Shown here in pieces: positions 3,518-21,253 of a DNA stretch of 64,000 nucleotides. Position 1 is the stretch's first letter. Each line of letters starts with the position of its first letter. The DNA lies in contig JBIKWL010000007.1 in the NCBI GenBank assembly GCA_044356335.1, positions 271 through 64,270 of the forward strand, in the 5' to 3' direction. Made by a program: the position numbers and the translations under genes. The stretch comes from Candidatus Sericytochromatia bacterium (GTDB taxonomy: Bacteria; Cyanobacteriota; Sericytochromatia; UBA7694). A model generated the notes under the pieces. The model saw nothing but the letters and a program-made list of their open reading frames with translations. It searched no databases and was not told the origin of the DNA.

Positions 3518-5102
3518 TTACTGATTTGAAATAATCACAGGGGTTCCAATTTTAAGTAATTTGAAAACCAGTTCGACATCTGAATTGCGCATGCGAATAC
3601 AGCCATCTGAAACTGGCTTGCCAATCAATTGAGGCACATCAGTCCCATGTAAACCAATTGTTACACCTGTGCGAAAGTGACCCACATTTAAAGCCATCCA
3701 CCTGCTCCCCAAAGGATTTTTGGGATGTTTAGGCGGATAATAGCCATGACGCCCTGAATAGGAGGGGTTTTCATCTTTTGAAACTATCCGAAATTTTCCA
3801 ACGGGTGTGCTCACGCTGTATCGCGCTGTGGAAACAGGAACCGTCAAAATCACTTTATCCCCATCTTTTAAAGTCAGCCGTTGATTTTTTTTGCTGATAT
3901 AGACCACGGCTTTAGAAGATAGAACGGGCAAGGGCGTCGCTGTTGGTTTTGGCGTAGGTAGGGGTGTCGGCGTGGGCTGCGAGGGAAAACTGCTGGGAAT
4001 ACCATCAAGATCAAAAATTTCATCCAGGGTTGCCTTCTCTTGCTGTTCTGAGTGCAAAAAAGGACAACTCAGATAGGAATCCCATTCTGGATCCTTGTCT
4101 AAATCAGAAAACAAGAATAATTCCTGGGAATCACAACGAAGTAAGGGAAAGTAGGTTTGCAAGCCAATCGGGGCACGTTTTGCCATTGGAGCAGGCAAAA
4201 AGGACTGTCGTTTTGGAGGCGGATCCGCTTTGGTGGGGGGAGCCACGGGGGTATTGAGAAAGGCCCAGAGCGCTTTTCTATGGGCTTTCCAGGCCTCAGG
4301 GCCTGATTGACGCGTGGTTTCTAAGGTAACGACTGGGATACCCAGTTCGGTTCCATAATAGGTACCAAAAGATCCTGGGGTGGGGTAGCCAATACTTCCT
4401 GTCGCTTTTAAGCGGTTTTCTTTCTGCATGGCCTGTGCAATATGCAAAGCCGGTCCATCAAAATTATTGACTGCCAAAGGGGAGTGAATACTCAGAATTT
4501 TGACTTTCTCTCTTTTGCCTGTTTCCAGATAGGGCTTGATCAATTCACTCACAATTCTTGATTCGGGTTCAGAAAGCGCATTGGGACCGGCATAATAACG
4601 GGTGCCTTTATTTTGCCCTTGAATAAAATTTTTCGTGGGAAAATTTCTGTTCAAATCAACGCCGATGTTATTGACCCTGGTTTTTTTGAAGGTGCCGTCG
4701 GGATTCACCAAGGGCATGCAAAAGATTGTTTTATTGTTATATTCATTTGGTTTTTGAACGAGTTCTAACATGAGTTGTCGAAGAAGGTGTTCCCCTTGGG
4801 GTTCATCACCATGAAAATTGCCAAAAAGAAAGACATACTCATCAGTTCCCTGTCCAAATTTGTAAATTTCAATCTCTTTGCCTTTCAAGCTCATTAAGGG
4901 AGATTTTGGTTGATTTGGCAGGGCAATGAGTTGAAATGGTTTAAGCGGTGAAACTGCTGAGCCAGCTGCTCCCAAAGAGGGCGAGACAGCCGGTACCGGT
5001 GACAATTCGGTAACTTTGGGAGCGGCTAAACTTTGACCCCCAAAGATCAAAACGGGCAACAAAAATCCGCTCAAAATCAGCGAATGGTTTAACTTAAACA
5101 TG
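3518..5102 (-). CDS. Secreted M14-family (MpaA-like, HGDE motif) peptidase fused to C-terminal L,D-transpeptidase (YkuD) domain
   Basis: The likely start is the internal Met (MFKLNHSLILSGFLLPVLIFG signal peptide, GGAG RBS 8 nt upstream); the ORF track extends it to 5149. 'FLFGNFHGDEPQGEHLL' is an HxxE zinc motif. A Pro/Thr linker 'PTPTPLPTPKPTATPLP' follows. The C-terminal 'HGTDVP...SDGCIRMRNSDV' is the LDT catalytic His/Cys motif. Confidence 0.65.
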
Positions 5103-5121
5103 TTCTGTTCTCCGGCATGAA

Positions 5122-5793
5122 TTATCGATAGGTGGTAAAACTGGAGCAATTATCAGAGCAAAGCTCGACGTAGTCTGGCTGTTCTTCACGCAAGACTTTC
5201 CATGAACCATTGTATCGCGTAAGATACAAATATTTGATTCCCCGATCTACATAGGTATCTGATTTATAAATTTGATCAAAGACGATCACTGCACTGCCAT
5301 TGTTGAGAATTTCATACCCGTAGCGTCCATCCAGAATTTCAATGTCAATCCAATTTTTCATTTTTCCTTTGGCCAATTTGTCATTCATCCAACCCGACAA
5401 ACCCATGCCTTTATAAGAAGCGTAAAAATTGGGATGATAAAAGGTGCGGTAGCTACTGACGCTACTATAAGTGGCTGTTCCTTCCCAAGCACTGACCCAG
5501 TCTCTTAGAAAGCCACTCAGTTCAGATTCGTAACCACTGTTATTGTTACTGCTGTTTAAACCACTTGTTTTCACTCGGCTGAGCACATCATTGACATAAT
5601 TATTTACTCTTTGTCGCGAAGCTGGATTGTAAGCACGACCTCTGTTGCGATTTCCCCTTTGCGTAAAACTCCGCCGACCATTGCTGACCCTATCATTAAA
5701 TTTTTTTGCATTGATATCTACTGCCATTGCGGGCAATTCACTCATCAATACCAAAGAAGAACACAACAGAATGAGTTGGAAAAAACGAAACAT
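5122..5793 (-). CDS. Secreted hypothetical protein, possible NTF2-like fold
   Basis: Signal peptide (LILLCSSLVLMSELPAMA). No catalytic motifs recognised. The C-terminal beta-rich segment resembles NTF2/SnoaL-like folds. Confidence 0.45.
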   Translation of the reverse strand: MFRFFQLILLCSSLVLMSELPAMAVDINAKKFNDRVSNGRRSFTQRGNRNRGRAYNPASRQRVNNYVNDVLSRVKTSGLNSSNNNSGYESELSGFLRDWVSAWEGTATYSSVSSYRTFYHPNFYASYKGMGLSGWMNDKLAKGKMKNWIDIEILDGRYGYEILNNGSAVIVFDQIYKSDTYVDRGIKYLYLTRYNGSWKVLREEQPDYVELCSDNCSSFTTYR

Positions 5794-5809
5794 ATTTATT
5801 AGACCCCTT

Positions 5810-7510
5810 TCAGTTCAGACGTTCTAAATTTTTTTTATAAAGATCAGTGGGAAACAAAGTTATTGCTGTTTTTAATAAGCTGATTGCTTTTTCTTTTTTT
5901 GAGTTTCTCCAAGCGTAGGCGACAGAATTAAGTAAGTCAGCCAAAATTTCTTTTTGTTGTTGATCGAGTTGGTTTTTGCGATTGGGAGAATATTTCAACG
6001 CCTGCTCAACATTGTCTAAACATTCCTGAAATTTTTCCTTGTCACGCCATTCTCCAGCCCGATTTATAAAAATATTAATCAGATTTTTTCGCGCTTCATT
6101 TTGTTTTGGATCTTTATCTAAAACCTGTTGAAAAGTTTCTATCGAGGCATTGTGGTGACCCGATGCATAGAGTTTATCTGCTTTTATAAGCAACGCTTTA
6201 ATCGCTGCTTGGGAAAAATTCAGAGTAATAGATTTTTCAAGGCTATTTTGGCCTCTTTTAAGTGTTAATTTTTCTTTATATGTATCAAAATTCTGAAGAC
6301 TGATTTCAAGCGTGTAATCCCCTGATCTGAAAACAACTTCTTCACCTGTTTTTAATGGTTTATCGCCCAATTTAATTTTGGCATTGATCGGATGGCTGTT
6401 GATTTTGACTGTGACGTGTGCTTGTTTTTCTTGATAATCCCAATAAATCATGCCGGTTCCCCCGAGCAACATCAAAGCCAGAAAACCACCCATCAGATAG
6501 ACAGGCAGCTTCATTTTTTTTGTTTCTTGGATGGGGGCTTCATTCCGCAATTTTAATTGACTGGTTTCGAGTAAATCTGTTGTTTGCGGTAATTTACCAG
6601 ATCCATATGAGGCTATTTCAGTTAAGGGCTTGGTATCGCGCCGCATCGCAAGGATTAATTCTCGGGCAGTTTGATAGCGCTGTTCCGGCGATTTGGTCAG
6701 CAGTTTTAAGACAATCCCCCGACATTCAGGGCTGAGGTCAGGTTTGAGCAACTTGGGGTCAGGAGGCGCTTCTTGAATATGCTTTAAGGCAACTGCAATT
6801 TCACTTTCACCTTGAAAGGGAAGTTCCCCAGTCAGCATCTGAAACATCAAAACGCCTAAGGAATAAAGATCAGAACGCTCATCCGCTTTTTTTGCATCCT
6901 GGGCCTGTTCTGGAGACATATACAGCGCTGTTCCCATTTGAGTTCCGGTCTGGGTCAAATGGCTTGCTCCCAAGAGGTTTTTCGCAATCCCAAAATCGAG
7001 TAAATAGGCGTGGGCAAAGCGATCCAGCATAATATTCGCGGGTTTGATATCGCGGTGAACAACCCCCCGGCTGTGGGCATATTCCAGGGCGCGGGTTACT
7101 TGGGCCAAAATATCCAAGACCATTTCTTCAGGTAAAGCCCCTTCATCATGAATCAATTCAGACAAAGAACGGCCTTCAATTAATTTCATCGTGAAAAAGA
7201 TGCGTTCAGGTTCCTGAACAATTCGGTAGATCGGAATAATATGGGCATGTTCTAACTGAGCCGCTCTGCGTGCTTCAGCCAAGAATCGCAAAACAAAATC
7301 TGGATTGTGGCAGAGTTCAGGCTTTAAGAGTTTAAGTGCCTCTTCGCGCTCCAAATCAAGATTTGTGACCCGGTAAACCTCTCCCATGCCACCCGCTTGC
7401 AAAAAGCCTTCTACGCGATACCCAGAGAGTTGCTCATGAAGCTTGAGTTGGTGCCGCATCGCTAATGTCCCAGTATAAAAGCCATGATCGCTTTTCCATT
7501 GCTGTTCCAA
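5810..7510 (-). CDS. Hanks-type Ser/Thr protein kinase, single TM, C-terminal TPR-like domain
   Basis: 'LQAGGMGEVYRV' is the Gly loop; 'HRDIKPANIML', 'DFGIAK' and 'MSPEQ' are also present. A TM segment 'LMGGFLALMLLGGTGMIY' follows. The alternative start at 7459 (MRHQLK..) would abut rather than overlap the upstream peptidase gene. Confidence 0.8.
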   Translation of the reverse strand: MEQQWKSDHGFYTGTLAMRHQLKLHEQLSGYRVEGFLQAGGMGEVYRVTNLDLEREEALKLLKPELCHNPDFVLRFLAEARRAAQLEHAHIIPIYRIVQEPERIFFTMKLIEGRSLSELIHDEGALPEEMVLDILAQVTRALEYAHSRGVVHRDIKPANIMLDRFAHAYLLDFGIAKNLLGASHLTQTGTQMGTALYMSPEQAQDAKKADERSDLYSLGVLMFQMLTGELPFQGESEIAVALKHIQEAPPDPKLLKPDLSPECRGIVLKLLTKSPEQRYQTARELILAMRRDTKPLTEIASYGSGKLPQTTDLLETSQLKLRNEAPIQETKKMKLPVYLMGGFLALMLLGGTGMIYWDYQEKQAHVTVKINSHPINAKIKLGDKPLKTGEEVVFRSGDYTLEISLQNFDTYKEKLTLKRGQNSLEKSITLNFSQAAIKALLIKADKLYASGHHNASIETFQQVLDKDPKQNEARKNLINIFINRAGEWRDKEKFQECLDNVEQALKYSPNRKNQLDQQQKEILADLLNSVAYAWRNSKKEKAISLLKTAITLFPTDLYKKNLERLN

Positions 7511-8526
7511 GCGGCAGGTCCAGCTTGATCTGCCGTTTCCAAAGTCACAAGGGGAATTCCTCTTTCCTGGCCATAATAGGTGCCAAAAGAGCCTGGTGTG
7601 GGATACCCAATTTCACCTTTTGCTGGTAAGCCATTGTATTGACTCATGAGTTTGGCCCACGCTTCTGAAGCGGCACCATCATAATTATTCATCGCCAAGG
7701 GGGCGTGGATCGACAAAATCCGTGTTTCCCCAAGCTGAATGATCCGATCTACCGTCCTCTGTATGGCCTGGCTTTCGGGTTCGGAGAGTGGACTTTTACC
7801 TGAATAATAGCGCGTGCCTTTTTTATTGCCAGGGATAAAATTTCGGGTGGGAAAGTTTCGATTCAAATCCACACCGGCCCCATTGGGGCGGGTTCCTCTG
7901 GCTAAGCCATCAGGGTTTACGATCGGAATCAGGTAGACCGTTTGGTCTGTATAGAGTTTCGGAGACTTATCCAAAGTTGATTGGACTTGCTGCATGATAT
8001 AAGCGATCGGAAGCTCATCTCCATGAAATGAACCCAATACAATAACCTGTTCCCCGTTGCCAGAACCATATTGGTAGAGTTTTATCGGGCGACCCTCTCT
8101 GCTTGTTCCAATCTCTTTTGATAATTTCTTTGGCGCAATCTTTGGCGCAATCGGTTGGATTTTCTGTTTTGGAGAATGGCCGGGGCTTGTCGCTTCGAGA
8201 GAGGATTGAGCTTGGGGGGCCTCGGTTGCCTCTGGCGTAGGTGAATCGGTTTGATCTGGGGGTTGATTATCGGGCTGCTCAGGGGGTTGAGGTGAGTTCG
8301 ATTCGAATCCGTCACTCTGTTCAGATTCGTGATCGGCACTCCCCAGTACAATTGTGCTACTTTCCTGACTGCTCGGCATGCTGGACGGTTGCTGAGTTGC
8401 TGAATCATTCGCAACACTCCCAATTTCCAGTTGATTGGCAGTGTTCAAACGCGACACCCCAAAATAGGAAAGAACCATCAGGCCAGCAGCAAGAGTCAAA
8501 ACGATAGGAAGTGATTTATTGTTCAT
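7462..8526 (-). CDS. M14-family (MpaA-like) zinc peptidase with Pro/Gln-rich N-terminal low-complexity region
   Basis: 'VIVLGSFHGDELP' is an HxxE motif. It is paralogous to the N-domain of 3518..5102 ('NRNFPT', 'YPTPGSFGTYYG' and 'TLET' are shared). TM/signal at the N-terminus. Confidence 0.6.
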   Translation of the reverse strand: MNNKSLPIVLTLAAGLMVLSYFGVSRLNTANQLEIGSVANDSATQQPSSMPSSQESSTIVLGSADHESEQSDGFESNSPQPPEQPDNQPPDQTDSPTPEATEAPQAQSSLEATSPGHSPKQKIQPIAPKIAPKKLSKEIGTSREGRPIKLYQYGSGNGEQVIVLGSFHGDELPIAYIMQQVQSTLDKSPKLYTDQTVYLIPIVNPDGLARGTRPNGAGVDLNRNFPTRNFIPGNKKGTRYYSGKSPLSEPESQAIQRTVDRIIQLGETRILSIHAPLAMNNYDGAASEAWAKLMSQYNGLPAKGEIGYPTPGSFGTYYGQERGIPLVTLETADQAGPAAWNSNGKAIMAFILGH

Positions 8527-8617: not shown

Positions 8618-9388
8618 TCATTTGGGAACTTTGGGCTGAGCGGGCATTTTCTTTATCGCCTGAATTCTGAGCTGCGGTGAATCATGGGTACTTAAAAAAT
8701 CGCCAAGACTCTCAGCATTTGAATGATTGGAAAATGGCTTTATCAAGTTTTCTAGCAAACGAATTGCATCATTTCGGGAGTATCCAGCTTTCTCCATCAA
8801 AGTGACTCCATAAATATCAGCTTTTCTCTCCTGTTCTTTGTTAAATGGAAGCCGAGAGAGGCTATAAACCAACTGAACCCCCTCAGCCAGCACAGGATCA
8901 ACTTTTGCAACGCGGGCACTGTATTGAACGCGGTGTGCACAGTGCAAAAGCTCTTGATGAGCCAGTTCATGCCCAAGCAGTGCAGCGATCAATCCTTCGG
9001 ATTGCAGGTATTTTAAAATTCCCTGATGAATCAAAATTTTTCCGCCAACAAAGGTAAAGGCGTTCGGCGTAGTGTCGTCAATCAAAAAAAGTTCATAAGC
9101 CAAATCCTGTTGTTTTAAATACGGCTTCAGCCGCTGAAGAACACGTACCCAACGCAGATCATTCAAGACACGAATCGATTTTTCCTGCTTATATGTTTGA
9201 AGAATCTGAGCGCCTATTTGGTTTTGTTCGGCTTGGCTCAAGCCTGTCAGATGCAAAATTTCGTCATTCATACGCTCCGTATATTCAAGACCCTCTTTAA
9301 ATAGGTCAAAGGGGTCAGGCAAATTTTGGTTGCTTGCCGATAGGGGGTAATACATAAAAAATATCAAGCTGGCCCAAATCTTAAACAC
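8618..9388 (-). CDS. M48-family zinc metallopeptidase (HExxH)
   Basis: Signal peptide. 'LLGHELAHQELLH' is an HExxH motif. Size and layout resemble BepA/YfgC-like peptidase domains. Confidence 0.55.
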   Translation of the reverse strand: MFKIWASLIFFMYYPLSASNQNLPDPFDLFKEGLEYTERMNDEILHLTGLSQAEQNQIGAQILQTYKQEKSIRVLNDLRWVRVLQRLKPYLKQQDLAYELFLIDDTTPNAFTFVGGKILIHQGILKYLQSEGLIAALLGHELAHQELLHCAHRVQYSARVAKVDPVLAEGVQLVYSLSRLPFNKEQERKADIYGVTLMEKAGYSRNDAIRLLENLIKPFSNHSNAESLGDFLSTHDSPQLRIQAIKKMPAQPKVPK

Positions 9389-9457
9389 GGAGTCCCCGAC
9401 CTCCCTCTGAATTCATGATCGAGTGGTATTAACAATATTTTAACTTAAATCAACTAA

Positions 9458-9473
9458 TTGTCAATATTGACAA
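9458..9473. promoter_or_regulatory. Perfect 16-bp palindrome TTGTCAATATTGACAA in divergent promoter region; half-site copy TTGACAAT at 9517..9524
   Basis: Read directly from the sequence in the 168-bp AT-rich intergenic region between the divergent M48 peptidase gene and the LDT/kinase operon. Confidence 0.4.
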
Positions 9474-10192: not shown

Positions 10193-10195
10193 GCA

Positions 10196-12663: not shown

Positions 12664-12676
12664 TTAAAGGTTAATT

Positions 12677-13585
12677 ATGAGTAAAAATATGAATTTAATA
12701 TTATTAATCGGCTCAAGTCTCATTATTTCAGCGGGTTTGGGTTATGGTGTTTATCAACTCATGCCGTTTGGGGCTGATCGCCGCTCAGAAACGAGTTCAC
12801 ACGAATCTCTTAACAACGTTCTTGGATCTGTTCCCTCTCCAACCCCTACAGAGCCCAATATTATCACTGTGGGAGATAATGACAATCTAAATCAGCCAGT
12901 AGAATCAACACCATCGGCCACTGTTTTTAAGTCAGCGCTTGTTTCATCAATTAAAACCGCTGTTCCAGAAGAATCTAATTTTAAACAATTTCCGTTTAGT
13001 TGTGATCAATTTGAAAACCAAATAATTCAAGACCCCAAGTATCAACGTGATCTCGCGATCTGGAAACCCCAAATTACGTCATACAGTTCTCGCCATTATG
13101 GTGAACCCACCTGGAAACTTGATCCCAGTGTCATTGTGCTTCACTATACAGTGGGAACCTCTTTCCCTTGGAATTTGGTAAATACGCTAAATTTTGCTGG
13201 AGAAACCCCAGGTTTATCCGTTCACTATGTGGTGGATGGACCCAAAATTTGGCGACTATTGCCAGATAATGTCCGATCACGGGGTGCCTATGGCATTAAC
13301 CACCGGGCTATCAATATTGAAATGATTGCGCTCGAAGAAAAAGATCTTTTTCAAAATCGAAAACCAACTTTGGATAAATCAGCAGAATTGGTCGCGTGCC
13401 TGATGCAGTGGCATAAAATACCAATAAAAAAAATCTATTCACATGAAGACGTTAGCAAAATGAATCCCAAAATTGTTCCTGAAGTTTTTGATTTGGTCCA
13501 ATCTGGGGCCTATGGCAAATCGGATCCGGGTGAATTGAATATGGCGTATGTACTCAATAAACTGAAACTCTGGGGCCTCAATTAA
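12677..13585 (+). CDS. N-acetylmuramoyl-L-alanine amidase, Amidase_2 (AmpD/PGRP-like) domain, membrane-anchored
   Basis: N-terminal TM. 'VIVLHYTVGT...SVHYVVDG...AYGINHRAINIEM' is typical of Amidase_2. Confidence 0.6.
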   Translation: MSKNMNLILLIGSSLIISAGLGYGVYQLMPFGADRRSETSSHESLNNVLGSVPSPTPTEPNIITVGDNDNLNQPVESTPSATVFKSALVSSIKTAVPEESNFKQFPFSCDQFENQIIQDPKYQRDLAIWKPQITSYSSRHYGEPTWKLDPSVIVLHYTVGTSFPWNLVNTLNFAGETPGLSVHYVVDGPKIWRLLPDNVRSRGAYGINHRAINIEMIALEEKDLFQNRKPTLDKSAELVACLMQWHKIPIKKIYSHEDVSKMNPKIVPEVFDLVQSGAYGKSDPGELNMAYVLNKLKLWGLN

Positions 13586-14991
13586 TGGGAAATCAACTTA
13601 AAAATCCATCCATCATTGTAAATTTCCTTTTTTGTTTGTTTATTTTATTCAGTACTTCTTCTGTTTCTTTTGCACAAGAATCGGTGAGCGCCATAATAGA
13701 ACTTAAAAATTCGCCAGATGTCTATCACAACCGGCCCGTCAGAATCAAAGGCCGAATTGTTGAAACTCAAATTGCCCCCAGAGGTTTGACAACCGGTCAT
13801 TATATTATTGAAGACAATACTGGGCGTTTGCCCGTACGTACCTCTAAACTGCCAGCTCCCAACGAATTGGTAGAAGTCTGGGGACAATTACTGAAAGATC
13901 AAGATGAACCTTATTTCATGCATATTCATGAAAATAAGCGCTGCTGCCCTGAATTTGATCCCTCAAATACTGGAAAAAGCAAAAGCAAGGAAGAAAAAAC
14001 AGAAAAGAAAGAAACTGAAAATCCTTTTAAAGATTTATCTCCAACAGTACTGATCGGATTGGGCTTAATTGTATTATCGATTATTGGCCTCATCGTCTTT
14101 TTAGTGCTTAAATCAAATCAGAAAAAACAACTGTTGTTAAAACAGGAAAATGAACGGCGCGATTCCGAGCAAAAAAGACGTGAAGTTTTAATGATGCGTA
14201 TGCAACAGGGGGGGGCTACAGGCGCATCTGATCAAACGCTTGTTCCGGGCCAAAACAACAGAGCAGGCTCTATCGGAGACGCTACCACAGTGGGCTATCC
14301 TGTCGGAAAGCTGGTCGTAATGGAAGGGCCTGAACAAGGAAAATCATATTCTGTGATGGCCCCCAAAACGATAATCGGAAAACAATCAGGATTGGGTGGC
14401 GTATTAAATCAATCTCAGGATCCACTTATCAGTAAAGTTCACGCAGAAATTCTTGCCACAGCATTTGGCAATTGCACTCTGGTAGATAAACAAAGTCGCA
14501 ACGGTACCCGTCTGAATGGACATCCCGTTTCTGAGACCGCGCTGAATGAGAACGATTTGATCGAAATTGGGAACAGCAAACTAAAATTCAGCTTGGTTTC
14601 AGCGAATCATTCTCCCCCCAAAACAGATTCAGCCCATTCAGGTATAGATGATAAAACAGTCATACGCAACGTAAATGAGCAGGCGACAATCGTTCGACGG
14701 CTCCCCAGTCTTGAAATCCTGATTGGACCCGATCAAGGAAAAATAGCCCGGATGGTTAAACAACGTTGGCTGGTTGGTAGAAGCAAAGAGGCGGATCTGG
14801 TTCTCTCGGATACCACCGTTTCGCGACAACAATTTAGCTTGGAGTTGCGTGGCGAACACATTTATCTTATTCCACTCAGCGAGCAGGTACCCATTCAAGT
14901 CGAAGACCAAGTGATCAGCACAGAAACCCTACTTGAAGACAAAGCTGAAATCAGCTTTGGAGATACCCGACTGCGTTTTTTGAAAGGATAG
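13585..14991 (+). CDS. Membrane protein with periplasmic OB-fold (BOF-like) domain and two cytoplasmic FHA domains
   Basis: Signal peptide, then an OB-like segment (RPVRIKGRIVE...HYIIEDNTG), then TM 'VLIGLGLIVLSIIGLIVFLVL'. Two FHA-like segments follow ('IGKQSGL...NGTRLNGHPV' and 'VGRSKEADLVLSD...'). The start overlaps the upstream stop (TAATG). Confidence 0.6.
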   Translation: MGNQLKNPSIIVNFLFCLFILFSTSSVSFAQESVSAIIELKNSPDVYHNRPVRIKGRIVETQIAPRGLTTGHYIIEDNTGRLPVRTSKLPAPNELVEVWGQLLKDQDEPYFMHIHENKRCCPEFDPSNTGKSKSKEEKTEKKETENPFKDLSPTVLIGLGLIVLSIIGLIVFLVLKSNQKKQLLLKQENERRDSEQKRREVLMMRMQQGGATGASDQTLVPGQNNRAGSIGDATTVGYPVGKLVVMEGPEQGKSYSVMAPKTIIGKQSGLGGVLNQSQDPLISKVHAEILATAFGNCTLVDKQSRNGTRLNGHPVSETALNENDLIEIGNSKLKFSLVSANHSPPKTDSAHSGIDDKTVIRNVNEQATIVRRLPSLEILIGPDQGKIARMVKQRWLVGRSKEADLVLSDTTVSRQQFSLELRGEHIYLIPLSEQVPIQVEDQVISTETLLEDKAEISFGDTRLRFLKG

Positions 14992-14995
14992 AAGT

Positions 14996-16636
14996 ATGAG
15001 CAATGCCTATTTTTTAAATGTAGCAGGGCTGAGCGATGTCGGTCAAAAACGCAATAACAATGAAGATGCTTATACACATTGCTCGAACCCTCAGATCATG
15101 GACGGGCATATTGCGGGCATGCTGGTTGTTTCTGATGGTATGGGGGGGCATGCCGCCGGAGAGGTTGCAAGTAACTTAACGACGACGCATTGGAATCAAT
15201 ATTGCCAAGAATTAATGTTACAGGCCTTGGACAAAGATGAGTTGGAATCTGCTGTTAAACATGGCGTCGTGGAATTACACCGGCGGGTTTTGGATTATGC
15301 AGACAAAAATAACAAAATGGGCATGGGCTGTACTTTTGTTTCCGCACTTTTACACAATCAAGAAGTACTGATCTCAAATGTAGGAGACTCTGGCGCTTTT
15401 CTCTGTCGCGATTCTCAGTGTGAATCGATTTATACCAGTGACAATGAGTTAGAGCGTTTATTGCAACAGGGAAAAATAACGCCTGAGATGGCTGCAAACT
15501 CCGCATTTAAAAGTCATTTGATGCAGGCCATTGGCTATCATGGAGAAGTTGAACCCCATACCTGTTTTCGACGCGTTTATAACGGAGATCGTCTGTTGCT
15601 CTGCTCAGACGGACTCACCGCACACGTTTCTCCACACGAATTCGCTGAAATTCTCTCTGGTTTTCCTGAAGACCGTGAAGCTGCTACCTATTTGATAAAA
15701 CTCGCGAATCAAAGGGGCGGGACCGATAATGTCACTGTGATTGTCGCAACTGTCGCGGGCTCTGCAACGGCCCCGCGTAAAATGGTGTTTAAACCTCAAC
15801 CCATAAAATCCAAAAACCATGGGGAATCTAAATTTTCAATGCATTGGCTTTTAGCTGCCTCGATTATTTTACTCGGAGTTGGCATAGGCATCACTGCGGG
15901 AGCAATGAAACCTTTTCGAAAAAATCAACCCATGACAGCAAAGACGCCAAAGCCACAAGTCTCACAAATGGAAAGCCCTCAAGCCACAAATCTCCCAGCT
16001 TTGAATGAACAGGTAATTTCGTCGCCAGAAACCGCAAATACTCAGCTTGAACAAAATGAAACCGCTTATCTAGAAGATTTCGGACGCAATAAAGACGGTT
16101 ATAAGCTTGAACTCAATCTAAATCTCAATACCGGAAAATATGAGATTTCAGCTCATCCACCTGGGGTTTTGAAATTACTGACGTTTAAAACTCAGCAGGG
16201 ATTGACCGATGTTCCCTTTGATCGCTTAATTATTCCGCCAGAAGATATTAAACCGAATACAAAAGTTTTAACTCAACTGATTTTAAGAGTTCAACGCACT
16301 CAGTCAAATTATTCATTGGTGGTTGAACCTCCTCGTGAAGTCATCATCAACAAACGCTCTCAAAATGTGCTTCAAAATTACTCATTCCCCCTCAATCAAC
16401 CCGCAAATACAAGAATGGGTTTGTATTTGATTAGAGAAAATACCAGAGCTTATCCCTTTATTATTACAAACGTATTTGCTCCTTTTCATAATACAAGCGT
16501 ACAAACAAACCAGAATTTGGATGTCTCTAAAAATGACAGATTTCAAAAGAAAAGAGGCATTCGTGGTGATTTTTCAGTTCAGTTTAATGAGCCAGATATA
16601 AATAGTAATCTAGAGCTTAAAGCTGGCAAGCGATGA
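14996..16636 (+). CDS. PP2C-family Ser/Thr protein phosphatase with TM segment and C-terminal extracytoplasmic domain
   Basis: 'GLSDVGQKRNNNEDAY', 'VVSDGMGGHAAGE' and 'GGTDNVTVIVA' are PPM motifs. TM segment 'WLLAASIILLGVGIGITAG'. Confidence 0.8.
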   Translation: MSNAYFLNVAGLSDVGQKRNNNEDAYTHCSNPQIMDGHIAGMLVVSDGMGGHAAGEVASNLTTTHWNQYCQELMLQALDKDELESAVKHGVVELHRRVLDYADKNNKMGMGCTFVSALLHNQEVLISNVGDSGAFLCRDSQCESIYTSDNELERLLQQGKITPEMAANSAFKSHLMQAIGYHGEVEPHTCFRRVYNGDRLLLCSDGLTAHVSPHEFAEILSGFPEDREAATYLIKLANQRGGTDNVTVIVATVAGSATAPRKMVFKPQPIKSKNHGESKFSMHWLLAASIILLGVGIGITAGAMKPFRKNQPMTAKTPKPQVSQMESPQATNLPALNEQVISSPETANTQLEQNETAYLEDFGRNKDGYKLELNLNLNTGKYEISAHPPGVLKLLTFKTQQGLTDVPFDRLIIPPEDIKPNTKVLTQLILRVQRTQSNYSLVVEPPREVIINKRSQNVLQNYSFPLNQPANTRMGLYLIRENTRAYPFIITNVFAPFHNTSVQTNQNLDVSKNDRFQKKRGIRGDFSVQFNEPDINSNLELKAGKR

Positions 16637-18609
16637 AAACTTGGCAAATCAATCAGACTCTCCAAATCGGCCGTTCTCCAGACAATCAGATCTGTTTGCC
16701 TCACGCTTTGGTTTCTCGCGCGCATGCTCGGATCACCATCAACAATGATCAAATTCAACTCGAAGATAGCAGCGCGAACGGTACCTTCGTTAACGGAGCA
16801 CGGGTGAGCGGTTCGGTTGTTCTAAAAGAACAAGACCTGATTCATATCGGTCCGTTTCGGCTTAGCTTAAACCAGAAGCAGCTCTCTCTTGATACGGCCG
16901 AAGGCCAAGGGCAGGTGCGTCTGGATGCGGTCAATATTCGTCTGGATGCTAGCGGCGGGAAAACTCTTCTGAATCAAGTCTCAGTGCATATACCTGCAGG
17001 ACAAGTCACGGCGCTTTTGGGGGCCAGTGGCGCAGGAAAATCTACCTTACTCAAAGTTTTAGCAGGATTTCTACCCCCTACAAGCGGTGATGTTTTTTTT
17101 AATGGCGAACCCATGTCGGTAAATTATCAAGCATTTCGTTCAAGTGTTGCCTTTGTACCCCAGGACGATATCATTCATCCTATGCTCAGTGTCGAAGAAG
17201 CTTTGAACTATGCCTCACGTTTGCGTTTGCCTGAAGATCTGACCCCCCTTGAGCGTTCACAACAAATAGACAATGTGCTATTTCAACTTGAGTTAGAACC
17301 CTTTCGGCATACTTTGGTCAAAGCGCTCAGTGGGGGACAGCGAAAACGTGTTAGCATTGGCGTCGAACTACTCAGTCAACCCCATCTCTTGATTCTGGAT
17401 GAACCCACCTCAGGTCTCGACCCGGGTCTTGAAAAGTATATGATGGAACAGTTTCAGACGATGAGTCGACAAGGAAAAACCATTCTCGTTACAACCCATT
17501 ATGTAAAGCACCTCGATCTATGTGATCAAATCGTGATTCTGGCCCCTGGCGGACACTTGGTATTTGCTGGCCCTCCCCGCAAAGCCTTAAGTTACTTCCA
17601 ACTTAGTGATTACGCAGATATCTATCGTTTACTTGAATCTCAATCCCCAGATATACTTTCGACCCGTTTTGAAGCCAACCCGCTCTATCTTCAACACATC
17701 GTGCATCCGCAACAAAATTTACTCCAAAGAGAGACAAAGGTTCTGCGCAAAGAAATTCGTCAAGATCGCTCACTGGGGCGCTGGACGCGTCAATTAATAA
17801 TTTTGACACAGCGCTATCTGCATATCTTAATGAGAGAAGGAGCGACTGTCGCTGGACTTCTTCTTCAAGCCCCTTTGATTGTTGTTTTACTGTGGCTAAC
17901 TTACCATCAGAATCTCTTTGACTTAGGCCCCCTCGATGCTCCCAATTTTGACTTTATTCAATCGCCATCTTTGCTTTTTTTTATGGTCTGTTCTGCACTC
18001 TGGTTTGGTATTTCAAATGCCACCCAGGAGATCATTCGGGAGTTTCCAATCTTTGCACGTGAGCGATTAATCAACCTGCATCTCTCTACTTATATTTTAT
18101 CCAAATATCTGGTTTTGGGATTTTTTTGCTTAATTCAATGTCTCGCCTTGCAGATCGGTTTGGGGCTGTGGTTTAAAGTCCCCCAAGTTTTTGAACCCGG
18201 CTTTTTTCTGATTCTTTATCTTACGGCACTTTGTGGTCAGGGGATTGGGTTTTGTCTTTCAGCCTGGTCTGATAGTGCCCTCAAAGCCATGAGTATTTTA
18301 CCTTTGGTGCTGATTCCACAGATTATGTTTTCGGGTTCGATTGTACCCGTGTCTGAAATGCCCAAAGCCAGTCAAGCAATCAGTCAGGTTACAGTCTCGT
18401 ATTGGGCCTATCAAGGATTGGGAAATCTAACCCAAATTTCTGATGAAAAGCTGGAAAGCCATGGTCAGGTGATTCTGGCTTTGCCAGAAACCGTTCGCAA
18501 TGAATTTAAGCACCATTCATTTCAAAAAACCGGTCTCAGCCTCTCACTTTGGTGTTTGTTTTTCTATTCTCTTTGCCTCATTTTATTGGGGCGCAGACGA
18601 TTGGTCTAA
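16633..18609 (+). CDS. FHA domain - ABC transporter fusion (ATPase + ABC-2 type permease)
   Basis: The N-terminal FHA is 'IGRSPDNQICLPHALVSRAHARI...NGTFVNG'. 'GASGAGKST' is Walker A, 'LSGGQRKRVSIG' the ABC signature and 'LILDEPTSGLD' Walker B. A C-terminal 6-TM permease follows. ATGA overlap with the PP2C gene. Confidence 0.8.
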   Translation: MKTWQINQTLQIGRSPDNQICLPHALVSRAHARITINNDQIQLEDSSANGTFVNGARVSGSVVLKEQDLIHIGPFRLSLNQKQLSLDTAEGQGQVRLDAVNIRLDASGGKTLLNQVSVHIPAGQVTALLGASGAGKSTLLKVLAGFLPPTSGDVFFNGEPMSVNYQAFRSSVAFVPQDDIIHPMLSVEEALNYASRLRLPEDLTPLERSQQIDNVLFQLELEPFRHTLVKALSGGQRKRVSIGVELLSQPHLLILDEPTSGLDPGLEKYMMEQFQTMSRQGKTILVTTHYVKHLDLCDQIVILAPGGHLVFAGPPRKALSYFQLSDYADIYRLLESQSPDILSTRFEANPLYLQHIVHPQQNLLQRETKVLRKEIRQDRSLGRWTRQLIILTQRYLHILMREGATVAGLLLQAPLIVVLLWLTYHQNLFDLGPLDAPNFDFIQSPSLLFFMVCSALWFGISNATQEIIREFPIFARERLINLHLSTYILSKYLVLGFFCLIQCLALQIGLGLWFKVPQVFEPGFFLILYLTALCGQGIGFCLSAWSDSALKAMSILPLVLIPQIMFSGSIVPVSEMPKASQAISQVTVSYWAYQGLGNLTQISDEKLESHGQVILALPETVRNEFKHHSFQKTGLSLSLWCLFFYSLCLILLGRRRLV

Positions 18610-21239: not shown

Positions 21240-21253
21240 CCCATTACTGGATT

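What the first reader, a model, noticed from the sequence alone, without database searches (positions are those of the whole stretch)
3518..18609. Tightly packed Ser/Thr-kinase / PP2C / FHA signalling genes interleaved with peptidoglycan-remodelling enzymes
Two gene strings with 0-4 nt spacers or overlaps occupy this span. The plus-strand string (9557..18609) runs L,D-transpeptidase, class-A beta-lactamase-like hydrolase, STPK with YARHG ectodomain, Amidase_2, OB-fold/2xFHA membrane protein, PP2C phosphatase, then FHA-ABC exporter. The minus-strand string (8526..3518) runs M14 MpaA-like peptidase, STPK with TPR domain, secreted NTF2-like protein, then an M14-LDT fusion. A divergent M48 peptidase sits between them. 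Every catalytic domain here acts on the stem peptide or glycan of murein. Every regulatory domain belongs to the eukaryotic-like phospho-Ser/Thr toolkit. The layout suggests a dedicated phospho-signalling circuit, with kinase ectodomains as sensors and FHA proteins plus the ABC exporter as outputs, controlling wall remodelling. The wall could be the cell's own or, in a predatory or epibiotic organism, that of prey. I do not know of this combination as a described system.
Basis: partly seen in the sequence, partly recalled or inferred. Interest (0 to 1): 0.8.

Follow-up and report, generated by a model that had tools for sequence, protein, structure and literature searches.

The report
Kinase-linked cell-wall trimming gene cluster
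An uncultured relative of cyanobacteria carries a foreign-looking block of about 16 genes that joins membrane Ser/Thr kinases, a phosphatase, phospho-binding adaptors and an exporter to enzymes that trim cell-wall peptides, and the same combination recurs in another phylum, so it is probably one undescribed wall-editing system.

Summary
All ORF coordinates and nearly all domain calls were confirmed, and every catalytic motif is intact. The host is a Sericytochromatia ("Ca. Blackallbacteria") bacterium. The cluster is larger than reported: it runs from window position 1 to about 19.1 kb and lies in a low-GC segment (42.5% against 52.8%) next to a DarT/NADAR pair.

Two related contigs keep the set, one with the same minus-strand gene order. 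Two Armatimonadota MAG contigs carry the same combination, with Amidase_3 in place of Amidase_2 and the Csd6-type NTF2 domain fused to a kinase.

The enzymes form a stem-peptide trimming set: a PBP-A-like DD-peptidase, YkuD proteins, MpaA-like M14 peptidases, an amidase and a deacetylase. This resembles Csd4/Csd6 and Pgp1/Pgp2.

Most likely reading: receptor kinases with wall-binding-type ectodomains, a membrane PP2C, a transmembrane 2×FHA adaptor and an Rv1747-like FHA-ABC exporter govern editing of the cell's own wall. No biochemistry exists.

Corrections: the "OB fold" is unverified, M48 heads the minus string, and the "β-lactamase" lacks Glu166.

Verdict: a new variant of known kinase-controlled wall regulation.

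The parts
1..1523 (+). 3' part of a large TPR-repeat gene (947 aa in the longer JGI contig). It starts upstream of the window and is first in a third, plus-strand string. Membership in the system is uncertain.
   Evidence: TPR families at E down to 1e-49. The 947-aa gene call is on the 49-kb contig. It lies 27 nt from the next gene.
1551..1961 (+). Small secreted protein that consists of a YARHG domain only.
   Evidence: PF13308 E 1e-10. FARHG motif at residue 75. N-terminal hydrophobic segment.
1962..3503 (+). Membrane-anchored or secreted NodB-type polysaccharide (peptidoglycan-type) deacetylase. Its N-terminal domain is a degenerate beta-lactamase-like fold.
   Evidence: Polysacc_deac_1 E 9e-25. 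PgdA/PdaB-like, below cut-off. N-terminal domain: Beta-lactamase2 E 0.0016 and BLASTP E 1e-5 to the neighbouring Bla-like protein. SxxK reads SLIE, and there is no SDN or KTG. TFDDG motif present.
3518..5149 (-). Fusion of an MpaA-like M14 metallopeptidase with a YkuD (L,D-transpeptidase / L,D-carboxypeptidase fold) domain. The likely true start is the ATG at 5101.
   Evidence: Pfam M14 E 3e-15 and YkuD E 8e-23. HGDE and SDGCIR motifs. The same fusion occurs in Armatimonadota L091 at 36-39% identity over both domains. No plasmid record carries the fusion.
5122..5793 (-). Secreted stand-alone NTF2-like domain of the Csd6/Pgp2/Bd1075 type.
   Evidence: PF24125 Cds6_C E 1e-11. Best solved relative is 7O21 = Bd1075, NTF2 region, E 2e-9. 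This domain binds peptidoglycan in Pgp2 (PMC8038945). Orthologue in L093 at 49% identity. Fused to a kinase in L091.
5810..7510 (-). Receptor Ser/Thr kinase: cytoplasmic Hanks kinase, one membrane helix, extracytoplasmic PEGA + TPR domain.
   Evidence: Pkinase E 5e-49; PEGA 22.6 bits (cut-off 20.8) and TPR_2 when the ectodomain is scanned alone. Membrane helix at 337-355. K/HRD/DFG/SPE motifs present. Orthologue in L093: 51% identity full length and 66% in the kinase domain.
7462..8526 (-). Membrane-anchored MpaA-like M14 peptidase with a roughly 110-residue low-complexity linker. Inferred to cleave the gamma-D-Glu-mDAP bond.
   Evidence: M14 E 2e-15. NCBIfam MpaA 92 bits, below the 157 cut-off. 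Best solved relatives are MpaA 5HXD and 4AXV. HGDE motif.
8618..9388 (-). Secreted M48 zinc protease (BepA/LoiP-like), first gene of the minus-strand string. M48 genes are also present in L093 and L092.
   Evidence: PF01435 E 2e-20, HELAH motif. M48 at 43% identity in L004/L093 and 27% in L092.
9389..9556 (.). 168-bp divergent intergenic region between the two main strings. It holds the best sigma-70-like match of the 20 kb scanned.
   Evidence: TTGACA-16-TAAAAT at 9464-9437 on the minus strand, 11 of 12 positions. Overall promoter counts are at chance level, so this is weak evidence.
9557..10192 (+). Secreted small YkuD protein, ElsL-like. It could be an L,D-carboxypeptidase or an L,D-transpeptidase.
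   Evidence: YkuD E 2e-22. NCBIfam ElsL 141 bits, below the 270 cut-off. HGT and SKGCIR motifs.
10196..11287 (+). Membrane-anchored class-A beta-lactamase-fold serine enzyme of the PBP-A type. Inferred to be a DD-peptidase rather than a beta-lactamase.
   Evidence: Beta-lactamase2 E 5e-44. All NCBIfam lactamase hits are far below cut-off. Solved relatives are 4EWF and Tll2115 (2J7V/2J9O). SLVK, SDN and KTG are present, but nothing equivalent to Glu166/Asn170 appears in the alignment with TEM-1. Orthologue in L093 at 35% identity.
11284..12663 (+). Receptor Ser/Thr kinase: Hanks kinase, one membrane helix, extracytoplasmic YARHG domain.
   Evidence: Pkinase E 1e-50, YARHG E 3e-18. Membrane helix at 308-326. 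YARHG motif at residue 405. The architecture was described in Cyanobacteria (PMC3355149). It is followed by an amidase gene in all five cluster loci.
12677..13585 (+). Membrane-anchored N-acetylmuramoyl-L-alanine amidase (Amidase_2).
   Evidence: PF01510 E 2e-13. LHYT and KSDPG motifs. Orthologues at 54% (L004) and 40-64% in two frames (L003). Replaced by Amidase_3 at the same position in L091 and L092.
13585..14991 (+). Transmembrane adaptor: signal peptide, conserved roughly 100-residue ectodomain of unknown fold, membrane helix, two cytoplasmic FHA domains.
   Evidence: Two FHA domains, E 3e-22. Topology. The FHA domains are modelled with moderate to high confidence (the second the better), the ectodomain is not. 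Only two orthologues in 5.8 billion clusters. The ectodomain has 16 relatives in 1.8 billion representatives; of the eight scanned, six are small ectodomain + FHA proteins.
14996..16636 (+). Membrane PP2C phosphatase: cytoplasmic Stp1/IreP-like PP2C, one membrane helix, roughly 240-residue extracytoplasmic domain of unknown fold.
   Evidence: PP2C E 4e-11; NCBIfam Stp1_PP2C 190 bits, below the 230 cut-off. Metal-binding motifs present. Membrane helix at 285-303. The C-terminal domain has no Pfam hit and pLDDT 35.
16633..18609 (+). FHA-gated ABC exporter: one canonical FHA domain, an ATPase, and an ABC-2 (ABCG-like) membrane domain.
   Evidence: FHA E 1e-18, ABC_tran E 2e-35, ABC2_membrane E 2e-23. 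GR/SRAH/NGT, Walker A, Walker B and signature motifs present. Orthologues at 74% and 48% identity; the wider family is widespread at 35-43%. A copy with two FHA domains is in L092.
18693..19109 (+). Small secreted protein of unknown function. A gene of like size with a signal peptide follows the exporter in L003 and L093, but without detectable sequence similarity. Membership is doubtful.
   Evidence: No Pfam or PADLOC hit. Positional counterparts. BLASTP E 0.1-0.2.

Best explanation
This is an accessory, probably horizontally acquired gene cassette. It couples an envelope-spanning Ser/Thr phospho-signalling module to enzymes that edit the cell's own peptidoglycan.

**Enzyme side (extracytoplasmic; five with an N-terminal hydrophobic segment, three of these with a long linker behind it)**
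- A PBP-A-like DD-peptidase would convert penta- to tetrapeptide stems.
- YkuD enzymes would remove the fourth residue or make 3-3 cross-links.
- MpaA-like M14 peptidases would cut the gamma-D-Glu-mDAP bond.
- An amidase would strip whole stems from the glycan.
- A deacetylase would modify the glycan.
- An M48 protease has an unknown target.

**Signalling side**
- Two receptor kinases (three or four in relatives) carry ectodomains of wall-binding type: YARHG, PEGA-TPR, and the Csd6-type NTF2 in Armatimonadota.
- They would read wall state or amidase products and phosphorylate threonines in the cytoplasm.
- Two proteins would read the phospho-threonines: a transmembrane 2xFHA adaptor and the FHA domain of an ABCG-like exporter, which would be switched as PknF switches Rv1747.
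- A membrane PP2C resets the state.

**Shown**
- Domain content, intact motifs, predicted topology, tight operon-like packing and conservation of the combination in five loci from two phyla.

**Inferred**
- Enzyme specificities, the ligands of the ectodomains, who phosphorylates whom, the exporter's cargo and the physiological purpose. The purpose could be cell shape, wall-stress adaptation or something else.
For: **Content of the locus**
- Domains and motifs. Topology.
- Packing: gaps of 3, -4, 13, -1, 4 and -4 nt along the plus string.

**Conservation**
- L093 ('Cyanobacteria_JACYMC01') keeps M48, 2xFHA, PP2C, FHA-ABC, three kinases including the YARHG kinase, Amidase_2, YkuD, two M14 proteins, NTF2 and the Bla-like gene. 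Its minus-string order is the same, and identities are 35-59%.
- L003 keeps YARHG, amidase, 2xFHA, PP2C and FHA-ABC in the same order.
- Armatimonadota L091 has 2xFHA, PP2C, four kinases (one fused to Cds6_C, one to YARHG), M14, the M14-YkuD fusion, Amidase_3 and GH3. Four of its gene pairs overlap by 4 nt.
- L092 has M48, three kinases, an M28 peptidase, YARHG kinase followed by Amidase_3, and FHA-ABC.

**Arguments for functional coupling**
- Non-orthologous displacement: Amidase_2 in one lineage, Amidase_3 in the other, at the same position.
- Domain fusion: NTF2 is free in the window and fused to a kinase in L091.

**Published support**
- The NTF2 type binds peptidoglycan in Pgp2 and targets Bd1075 (PMC8038945, PMC8938487).
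- YARHG was proposed to bind peptidoglycan or a nearby ligand.
- The FHA-ABC/kinase precedent is Rv1747-PknF (PMC3138270).
- Kinase/phosphatase control of an L,D-transpeptidase pathway is described in PMC4161250 (title and start of abstract only).

**Acting on the cell's own wall**
- Five of the nine enzymes have an N-terminal hydrophobic segment in the scan, and three of them have a long low-complexity linker after it.
Against: - There are no expression, biochemical or genetic data, and all organisms are uncultured.
- The enzymes have almost no cytoplasmic tail. Kinases therefore cannot phosphorylate them directly, and the link from signalling to enzyme activity is unknown.
- The ectodomains of the 2xFHA adaptor and PP2C could not be assigned a fold. 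They are not detectably conserved in Armatimonadota.
- YARHG kinases also occur outside such clusters (L089).
- No enzyme reaches an NCBIfam equivalog cut-off, so specificities are guesses.
- FHA-ABC was not seen in the 19 kb of L091 that could be read.
- Only five loci are known, several of them cut by contig ends.
Confidence: 0.55

Rival explanations
1. A wall-damage or antibiotic response cassette. The kinases sense damage from beta-lactams or lytic enzymes and switch the cell to a penicillin-insensitive L,D-cross-linking mode. A DD-peptidase would make tetrapeptide donors and YkuD enzymes would make 3-3 links, as in Enterococcus faecium, where a kinase/phosphatase pair has been linked to control of the L,D-transpeptidase pathway. 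This overlaps with the best explanation but fixes the purpose as stress bypass and repair.
For: - The plus string opens with YkuD followed by a penicillin-binding-type serine enzyme and then a kinase.
- PMC4161250 (title and start of abstract only, the DD-carboxypeptidase dependence is from my own knowledge) is a precedent for Ser/Thr phosphatase control of the L,D-transpeptidase pathway.
- The low GC and absence from close relatives suggest an accessory trait, as resistance islands often are.
Against: - The M14 gamma-D-Glu-mDAP-type peptidases, the amidase, the deacetylase, and the GH3 or M28 enzymes of the Armatimonadota versions all degrade or trim. They have no place in a bypass pathway.
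- The Bla-like gene is absent from the readable part of L091.
- Whether the YkuD proteins are transpeptidases or carboxypeptidases cannot be told from sequence. The small one is closest to the carboxypeptidase ElsL.
Confidence: 0.15
2. An envelope-level defence or conflict system. The kinases detect phage or predator attack on the wall, and the cassette remodels or sacrifices the wall in response.
For: - In the window the cluster sits in a low-GC segment directly next to DarT/NADAR, a secreted nuclease and a TPR-DUF4145 protein.
- In L091 it is followed by DruA and NurA genes.
- The distribution across phyla is patchy and rare.
- The kinases expanded within each lineage and carry varied ectodomains, a pattern seen in conflict systems.
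Against: - No PADLOC model matches beyond generic kinase-domain and ATPase hits. The 2xFHA, NTF2 and small proteins have none.
- The strings contain no typical abortive-infection effector.
- In L003 the flanking genes are metabolic.
- Adjacency to defence genes may only reflect a variable genome region.
Confidence: 0.1
3. A weapon against the walls of other bacteria (prey or competitors), as the first reader suggested as an alternative.
For: - All enzymes are predicted to be extracytoplasmic wall hydrolases or modifiers.
- Predatory bacteria such as Bdellovibrio use deacetylases, L,D-transpeptidases and DD-peptidases on prey walls (own knowledge). The Bd1075 paper notes prey-wall-modifying enzymes.
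Against: - The separate M14, the amidase and the Bla-like protein have an N-terminal hydrophobic anchor followed by a long linker. That fits action on the producer's own sacculus.
- No secretion, injection or immunity genes were found among the cluster's neighbours scanned.
- As far as I know, Sericytochromatia are not known predators.
- The closest characterised relative of the NTF2 domain, Bd1075, acts on the predator's own wall.
Confidence: 0.05
4. There is no functional system. Wall enzymes and signalling genes merely accumulated side by side in a variable island.
For: - The low-GC island holds unrelated genes as well, such as DarT/NADAR and a nuclease.
- FHA-ABC genes and YARHG kinases each occur alone elsewhere.
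Against: - The same combination recurs in five loci from two phyla, at 27-74% protein identity.
- It shows conserved sub-orders, translational-coupling overlaps, a shared M14-YkuD fusion, an amidase replacement at the same position and an alternative NTF2-kinase fusion.
- Enrichment within the window is p of about 2e-8.
Confidence: 0.05

Closest known systems
PASTA-kinase wall-regulation clusters of Actinobacteria and Firmicutes (fhaA-fhaB-pstP-rodA-pbpA-pknA-pknB; PrkC/PrpC; Stk1/Stp1; IreK/IreP). Gene content is from own knowledge; review PMC6213207 was only listed and not read.
   Same: - A membrane Hanks kinase with a wall-sensing ectodomain, a PP2C phosphatase and FHA adaptors are encoded together with wall enzymes.
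- The PP2C here is Stp1/IreP-like.
- Outside the YARHG group, PASTA kinases are prominent among the closest kinase-domain relatives found.
   Different: - There is no PASTA domain. The ectodomains are YARHG, PEGA-TPR or NTF2.
- The partner enzymes are trimming and hydrolytic enzymes, not the RodA/PbpA synthases.
- The FHA adaptor and the PP2C each span the membrane and carry an ectodomain.
- The hosts are Sericytochromatia and Armatimonadota, which I take to be diderm lineages (not tested here).
- The cassette is accessory rather than core.
PknF-Rv1747 of Mycobacterium tuberculosis (FHA-domain ABC exporter positively regulated by Ser/Thr phosphorylation; PMC3138270)
   Same: - The architecture is N-terminal FHA, then ATPase, then ABC-2 membrane domain, encoded in an operon with a Hanks kinase.
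- Homologues of the window protein at 35-43% identity have this architecture and are sometimes next to kinases.
   Different: - There is one FHA domain instead of two.
- It is embedded in a much larger cluster with a separate 2xFHA adaptor, a PP2C and wall hydrolases.
- The cargo is unknown in both cases.
Stem-peptide trimming, cell-shape enzymes Csd4/Csd6 (Helicobacter), Pgp1/Pgp2 (Campylobacter) and Bd1075 (Bdellovibrio) (PMC4599014, PMC8038945, PMC8938487)
   Same: - The combination is the same: a YkuD-fold enzyme, an M14 peptidase for the gamma-D-Glu-mDAP bond, and the Csd6-type NTF2 wall-binding domain.
- The activities are sequential, and here they are even fused in one protein (M14-YkuD).
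   Different: - The NTF2 domain is a separate protein, or is fused to a kinase, instead of to the carboxypeptidase.
- The M14 proteins are closer to MpaA than to Csd4.
- As far as I know, those systems are not linked to Ser/Thr kinases.
- The enzyme activities and any shape effect are untested here.
Stk/StpA control of the L,D-transpeptidase pathway in Enterococcus faecium (PMC4161250)
   Same: A Hanks kinase / PP2C pair has been linked to control of an L,D-transpeptidase cross-linking pathway (title and start of abstract only, the DD-carboxypeptidase dependence is from my own knowledge).
   Different: - As far as I know, the genes there are not clustered with the enzymes.
- Here they are, together with further hydrolases, FHA adaptors and an exporter.
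Cyanobacterial STPK-TM-YARHG kinases (Coggill and Bateman 2012, PMC3355149) and PBP-A / Tll2115 of Thermosynechococcus (PDB 2J7V; its DD-peptidase activity is from own knowledge)
   Same: - The YARHG kinase has exactly the described architecture: about 460-500 aa, no signal peptide, one membrane helix.
- The Bla-like protein's second-best solved relative is Tll2115. It lacks Glu166, as I recall PBP-A does.
   Different: - Those proteins were described singly, without a conserved gene context.
- The conserved pairing of the YARHG kinase with an amidase is new context information.

Membership tests
PASTA-kinase wall-regulation cluster (PknB/PstP/FhaA type) | Kinase ectodomain made of PASTA repeats | tested here: not met
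   PF03793 is absent from both kinases. The ectodomains are YARHG and PEGA+TPR.
PASTA-kinase wall-regulation cluster (PknB/PstP/FhaA type) | Co-encoded PP2C phosphatase and FHA-domain proteins | tested here: met
   A PP2C with intact motifs, a 2xFHA protein and an FHA-ABC protein lie in the same string.
PASTA-kinase wall-regulation cluster (PknB/PstP/FhaA type) | Co-encoded SEDS glycosyltransferase and class B PBP (RodA/PbpA) | tested here: not met
   No FTSW_RODA_SPOVE or transpeptidase family was found among the genes of 1-22 kb.
Rv1747-type FHA-ABC exporter | N-terminal FHA, then ABC ATPase, then ABC-2 membrane domain in one protein | tested here: met
   FHA at residues 12-73, ABC_tran at 113-260, ABC2_membrane at 387-596. 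Motifs intact.
Rv1747-type FHA-ABC exporter | Two FHA domains joined by a phospho-acceptor linker | tested here: not met
   There is a single FHA domain in a 658-aa protein. Typical relatives are 750-1100 aa, and those inspected have two FHA domains.
Rv1747-type FHA-ABC exporter | Hanks kinase in the same operon; activity raised by phosphorylation | tested here: inconclusive
   A kinase lies in the same plus-strand string. Dependence on phosphorylation is not testable here.
Csd4/Csd6 - Pgp1/Pgp2 stem-peptide trimming enzymes | YkuD-fold L,D-carboxypeptidase carrying a C-terminal NTF2 domain | tested here: not met
   The YkuD domains and the NTF2 domain are on separate proteins. NTF2 is free in the window and L093, and fused to a kinase in L091.
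Csd4/Csd6 - Pgp1/Pgp2 stem-peptide trimming enzymes | NTF2 domain of the Csd6/Pgp2/Bd1075 type | tested here: met
   PF24125 E 1e-11; 7O21 (Bd1075) residues 189-300, E 2e-9.
Csd4/Csd6 - Pgp1/Pgp2 stem-peptide trimming enzymes | M14 D,L-carboxypeptidase acting on muramyl tripeptide | tested here: inconclusive
   There are two M14 domains with the zinc motif. Their nearest relatives are MpaA (5HXD, 4AXV), and Csd4 was not recovered. Substrate is not testable.
Class A beta-lactamase | SxxK, SDN and KTG motifs | tested here: met
   SLVK at 129, SDN at 194, KTG at 300, all aligned with the TEM-1 motifs.
Class A beta-lactamase | Omega-loop Glu166 (and Asn170) for deacylation | tested here: not met
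No Glu or Asn sits at the equivalent positions, and the same holds for the L093 orthologue. The alignment has only 20% identity, so confidence is moderate.
STPK-TM-YARHG kinases (PF00069 + PF13308) | N-terminal kinase, one membrane helix, C-terminal extracellular YARHG domain, about 500 aa | tested here: met
   description in PMC3355149.
Known anti-phage defence systems (PADLOC 2.0) | Match of the cluster's specific proteins to a defence-system model | tested here: not met
   There are only kinase-domain hits to the generic PD-T4-6/mad6 models and ATPase hits. The 2xFHA, NTF2 and small proteins have none. DarT next door does match.
Type VI secretion threonine-phosphorylation pathway (PpkA/PppA/Fha1) | Kinase, PP2C and FHA encoded within a T6SS gene cluster | tested here: not met
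   No T6SS core family was found among the about 40 window proteins scanned. ORFs beyond 52 kb were mostly not scanned.

The most novel reading that the evidence does not exclude
The cassette is a self-contained, horizontally mobile wall-state sensing and editing organ of two lineages that I take to be diderm. In this reading:
- Kinases with YARHG and Csd6-type NTF2 ectodomains read specific muropeptide states, such as the products of the adjacent amidase. That would make them a counterpart of PASTA-kinase signalling and would finally give YARHG a ligand.
- The signal is passed back across the membrane through a new class of transmembrane FHA adaptor and an FHA-gated exporter.
- Because the cassette sits beside defence genes in two unrelated genomes, its purpose may be an envelope-level response to phage, predators or lytic enzymes.
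Probability: 0.2. Interest if true: 0.8.

Novelty: new variant of a known kind. Interest (0 to 1): 0.6.

Why it matters
Ser/Thr kinase control of the cell wall is well studied only for PASTA kinases of Gram-positive bacteria and mycobacteria. What the many other bacterial receptor kinases sense is largely unknown.

- **A testable hypothesis for two domains.** The YARHG domain has had no ligand since its description in 2012. The Csd6-type NTF2 domain is known only as an appendage of shape-determining carboxypeptidases. Here both appear as kinase ectodomains, or next to kinases, locked to an amidase and to stem-peptide trimming enzymes in two phyla. The hypothesis this gives is that they bind sacculi or muropeptides.
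- **New components.** The locus also points to a rare family of membrane-spanning FHA adaptors.
- **A portable cassette.** It suggests that a complete trimming pathway can travel as one regulated cassette.
- **Little-known hosts.** Wall biology in Sericytochromatia and Armatimonadota is, as far as I know, largely unexplored.

Tried and rejected
- **Fold of the 2xFHA ectodomain ('OB fold').** A permissive Pfam scan found nothing. An AlphaFold model built from a 3-sequence alignment had pLDDT of about 25 in that domain. The only hint is a sub-threshold CcmE (OB-type) hit in a second region of one distant relative. No fold search was run, because the model is meaningless.
- **Fold of the PP2C C-terminal ectodomain.** There is no Pfam hit, and a single-sequence model had pLDDT 35. 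Abandoned.
- **Species-representative genomes.** A scan with the 2xFHA alignment found nothing. The JGI metagenome scan found only one 55-residue fragment (L005).
- **Island presence or absence in close strains.** Exact-match look-up of the boundary scramblase gave only 1-3 kb contigs. Two span the edge identically, and the others break just upstream. Unresolved.
- **Known defence system.** Rejected on the PADLOC result.
- **True beta-lactamase.** Rejected on the missing Glu166 and the sub-threshold NCBIfam scores.
- **Small downstream ORF as a conserved member.** Only its position, size and signal peptide are shared. BLASTP E is 0.1-0.2.
- **Plasmid carriage.** No plasmid has the M14-YkuD fusion.
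- **RNA features.** No tRNA or Rfam element is in the window.
- **Promoters and terminators.** Scans are at chance level overall.
- **Chimeric assembly.** Rejected. Independent assemblies from other samples reproduce parts of the cluster (L001, L002) and the low-GC/high-GC junction (L094, L096) at 99.9-100% identity.
- **FtsEX-like mechanical transmission by the ABC protein.** Judged unlikely. My reading of the translation and the hydrophobic segments shows only short extracytoplasmic loops in the membrane domain.

Full report

Yes. Pfam confirms each domain call:
- 3518-5149(-): M14 + YkuD
- 5122-5793(-): Cds6_C NTF2-like domain
- 5810-7510(-): Pkinase + PEGA + TPR
- 7462-8526(-): M14
- 8618-9388(-): M48
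- 9557-10192(+): YkuD
- 10196-11287(+): Beta-lactamase2
- 11284-12663(+): Pkinase + YARHG
- 12677-13585(+): Amidase_2
- 13585-14991(+): two FHA domains
- 14996-16636(+): PP2C
- 16633-18609(+): FHA + ABC_tran + ABC2_membrane

The motifs checked are intact in both kinases (Lys, HRD, DFG, SPE) and in PP2C (RxxNED, DGMGG, GDS, SDGL, DN). The same holds for both YkuD domains (HGT ... GCIR), both M14 domains (HGDE), M48 (HELAH), the amidase, the deacetylase and the ABC ATPase.

A crude hydropathy scan gives an N-terminal hydrophobic segment for seven of the nine enzymes. M48 and the small YkuD fall below its threshold, although their N-termini read like signal peptides. The scan also gives a single membrane helix after the kinase and PP2C domains. 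The 2xFHA protein has a signal peptide plus one membrane helix, so its N-terminal domain would be outside and its FHA domains inside.

The concentration is far beyond chance. 13 of 16 genes in the first 19 kb carry such domains, against 1 of about 34 in the rest of the window (rough Fisher p = 2e-8).

**2. Corrections to the observation**

- The cluster is larger than reported. Upstream of 3518 lies a third plus-strand string:
  - a TPR gene cut by the window start (947 aa in a longer contig);
  - a secreted YARHG-only protein (1551-1961);
  - a NodB-type deacetylase (1962-3503).
- The deacetylase's N-terminal domain is a degenerate beta-lactamase-like fold. Its SxxK lysine is replaced by Glu, and it has no SDN or KTG.
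- M48 is on the minus strand and heads that string. The 168-bp gap at 9389-9556 is the divergent control region, and it holds the best promoter-like match of the 20 kb. Such matches are at chance level overall.
- Junctions of 0-4 nt hold for most of the plus string but not all: the gaps are 3, -4, 13, -1, 4, -4 and 83 nt.
- The 'OB fold' could not be verified.
- The beta-lactamase-like protein keeps SxxK, SDN and KTG, but nothing aligns with Glu166 or Asn170 of TEM-1. Its second-best solved relative is Tll2115 of Thermosynechococcus, which I recall as the cyanobacterial PBP-A DD-peptidase. It is therefore more likely a DD-peptidase than a lactamase (inference).
- M48 has no demonstrated link to murein.

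**3. Host and genomic setting**

The rest of the window is ordinary chromosome: aroA, aroC, radA, metG, mltA, transporters. Chorismate synthase is 95-98% identical to three MAGs named Candidatus Blackallbacteria or Candidatus Sericytochromatia. The host is therefore a member of the non-photosynthetic sister class of Cyanobacteria.

The cluster has 42.5% GC and the rest of the window 52.8%. Immediately downstream, still at low GC, lie a DarT/NADAR pair, a secreted nuclease and a TPR-DUF4145 protein.

The conserved ectodomain motifs of the 2xFHA protein were found in none of 185,579 species-representative genomes, including the three close relatives. This suggests an acquired, accessory island. 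The caveat is that MAG binning tends to lose regions of atypical composition.

The assembly is not chimeric. Independent contigs from other samples reproduce parts of the cluster and the junction at 99.9-100% identity.

**4. Is the neighbourhood conserved?**

*Close relatives.* The 2xFHA protein has only two clear orthologues in 5.8 billion protein clusters, at 64% and 46% identity. Both lie in the same kind of cluster.
- L003 is cut by a contig end. It has YARHG, Amidase_2, 2xFHA, PP2C, FHA-ABC and a small ORF in the same order, followed by unrelated genes.
- L093 is the full 18-kb contig labelled Cyanobacteria_JACYMC01. It has M48, 2xFHA, PP2C, FHA-ABC, a small ORF, a kinase, the YARHG kinase and Amidase_2.
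- On the other strand of L093 the order is M14, kinase, NTF2, M14, YkuD, the same as in the window. A divergent Bla-like gene follows. Identities are 35-59%.

*A second phylum.* Searching with the YARHG kinase found two Armatimonadota MAG contigs.
- L091 has 2xFHA, PP2C, a kinase, GH3, a kinase fused to Cds6_C, M14, the M14-YkuD fusion, the YARHG kinase, Amidase_3, an unknown gene and a fourth kinase. Four gene pairs overlap by 4 nt.
- L092 has M48, a kinase, an M28 peptidase, a kinase, the YARHG kinase, Amidase_3 and FHA-ABC, where the contig ends.

*Three features that argue for functional coupling rather than shared descent of a random neighbourhood.*
- The gene after the YARHG kinase is always an N-acetylmuramoyl-L-alanine amidase, but of two unrelated families.
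- The NTF2 domain is a free secreted protein in one lineage and a kinase ectodomain in the other.
- The unusual M14-YkuD fusion is shared across phyla and is absent from 72,556 plasmids.

*Other observations.*
- Kinase domains group by lineage: 47-70% identity within a lineage and 33-40% across. Each lineage therefore expanded its own kinase set and varied the ectodomains.
- The parts also occur alone. FHA-ABC exporters are widespread at 35-43% identity in unrelated contexts, sometimes beside kinases. A close YARHG kinase sits in a different context in L089.
- In L003 and L091 the cluster's GC equals that of its flanks. The atypical composition is therefore specific to the window's host.

**5. 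What the enzymes are**

- NCBIfam places both M14 domains nearest MpaA, the gamma-D-Glu-mDAP amidase. The best solved relatives are MpaA 5HXD and 4AXV.
- The small YkuD protein is nearest the L,D-carboxypeptidase ElsL.
- The deacetylase is nearest PgdA and PdaB.
- All of these score below the equivalog cut-offs, so the specificities are inferred.
- The NTF2 protein's best solved relative is 7O21. This is Bd1075 of Bdellovibrio, an L,D-carboxypeptidase whose NTF2 domain targets it to one cell face. In the homologous Pgp2 this domain binds peptidoglycan. The Pfam name 'Cds6_C' probably refers to Helicobacter Csd6 (my inference).

Together the set reads as a stem-peptide trimming series: DD-peptidase, then L,D-carboxypeptidase or transpeptidase, then a D,L-peptidase. 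Stem removal by the amidase and glycan deacetylation come on top. This is the logic of Csd6/Csd4 and Pgp2/Pgp1, which shape Helicobacter and Campylobacter cells.

**6. What the signalling parts are**

- The kinase-helix-YARHG architecture was described in Cyanobacteria in 2012, with a proposed but untested peptidoglycan ligand. The one structure (4G2A) gave no function.
- The PP2C is Stp1/IreP-like and carries a membrane helix and an ectodomain of about 240 residues with unknown fold.
- The exporter's FHA domain is canonical (GR, SRAH, NGT). The two FHA domains of the adaptor deviate slightly (GK/SKVH and GR/SRQQ).
- The adaptor's ectodomain is its most conserved part among orthologues (68-81% identity). 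It has only 16 relatives in 1.8 billion representative proteins. Of the eight scanned, six are small ectodomain + FHA proteins. This points to a rare family of membrane-spanning FHA adaptors.
- The Armatimonadota adaptor has the same topology but no detectable ectodomain similarity.

**7. Most likely mechanism (confidence 0.55)**

- The receptor kinases read wall state, or the products of the adjacent amidase, through their wall-binding-type ectodomains.
- They phosphorylate threonines in the cytoplasm.
- The phospho-threonines are read by the transmembrane 2xFHA adaptor and by the FHA domain of the exporter. The exporter would be switched as PknF switches Rv1747.
- The membrane PP2C resets the system.
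- The output bears on the extracytoplasmic trimming enzymes. Five of them have an N-terminal hydrophobic segment, and three of these have a long linker behind it. That argues they act on the producer's own sacculus.

What is shown: content, motifs, predicted topology, packing and conservation.

What is inferred: substrates, ligands, phosphorylation targets, cargo and purpose.

The weakest step is how a cytoplasmic phospho-signal reaches periplasmic enzymes. The enzymes have almost no cytoplasmic tail. The route must therefore run through the exporter, through the adaptor's or the phosphatase's ectodomain, or through gene expression.

**8. Rival readings**

- A wall-damage or beta-lactam bypass response (0.15). 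It fits the YkuD + PBP-like pair and the E. faecium precedent. It does not fit the degradative enzymes.
- An envelope-level defence system (0.10). Defence genes flank the cluster in two unrelated genomes, and the distribution is patchy. There is no PADLOC support.
- A weapon against other cells' walls (0.05). The membrane tethering and the lack of delivery genes weaken it.
- Mere co-location (0.05). The cross-phylum conservation contradicts it.

**9. Comparison with what is known, and novelty**

- The principle that Hanks kinase, PP2C and FHA proteins control wall enzymes is established. I take the main example, the actinobacterial fhaA-fhaB-pstP-rodA-pbpA-pknA-pknB cluster, from my own knowledge; one search surfaced a review of the field and an E. 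faecium paper that I cite from title and abstract only.
- The kinase-regulated FHA-ABC pair and the trimming enzymes are also established.
- This cluster fails the defining features of each family as a whole: it has no PASTA domain, no RodA/PbpA, one FHA domain on the exporter, and the NTF2 domain is not on the carboxypeptidase.
- Searches of the literature available here found no description of the combination. The searchable library is limited.
- I therefore rate it a new variant of a known kind, not categorically new.

**10. Score**

Interest is 0.6. The locus gives a concrete and testable context for two orphan extracellular domains and for non-PASTA receptor kinases. It also points to a portable, regulated wall-editing cassette in barely studied phyla. 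Everything beyond gene content is inference from five partly truncated metagenomic loci.

Noticed in passing
window 19328-20601 (-): Overlapping DarT (PF14487 E 5e-14; PADLOC DarT) and NADAR-DarT1 antitoxin (PF22397 E 1e-80) genes. This is a DarT1/NADAR ADP-ribosylation toxin-antitoxin or defence pair directly downstream of the cluster, also at low GC.
   Followed up: partly
window 20748-22321: A secreted staphylococcal-nuclease homologue (20748-21239) and a membrane TPR + DUF4145 protein (21254-22321, weak PADLOC PDC-M16A hit) complete the low-GC segment. GC rises to host level between about 21 and 23 kb.
   Followed up: partly
L091 15622-18027: In the Armatimonadota MAG the cluster is followed by DruA (Druantia-type) and NurA genes. 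This is a second case of defence-type neighbours.
   Followed up: no
L003 625-4540: In this related copy the Amidase_2 and PP2C genes and the 3' end of the 2xFHA gene are split between reading frames. They are either decaying pseudogenes or errors of the automatic assembly.
   Followed up: no
window 22327-22462 (upstream of scramblase 22463-23047); L095, L097 and a 2478-nt contig of sample 3300059473: Several short contigs from different samples break within about 100-500 nt upstream of the scramblase gene, and one has a different 66-aa gene there. This may reflect strain differences at the island edge. No DNA was available for the variant contig.
   Followed up: partly
window 1962-2816 (+): The deacetylase carries an N-terminal beta-lactamase-like domain that has lost the SxxK lysine, SDN and KTG. 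It may be a stem-peptide-binding module rather than an enzyme.
   Followed up: partly
window 27129-31394 (-): A 1421-aa protein combines an MshEN domain with NHL/PQQ-type beta-propeller repeats. The architecture is unusual and it is unrelated to the finding.
   Followed up: no
L092 612-2159: One Armatimonadota cluster kinase carries a precomputed hit to PF25302 (NADase_transloc) in its extracytoplasmic part. This is another variant sensor domain.
   Followed up: no
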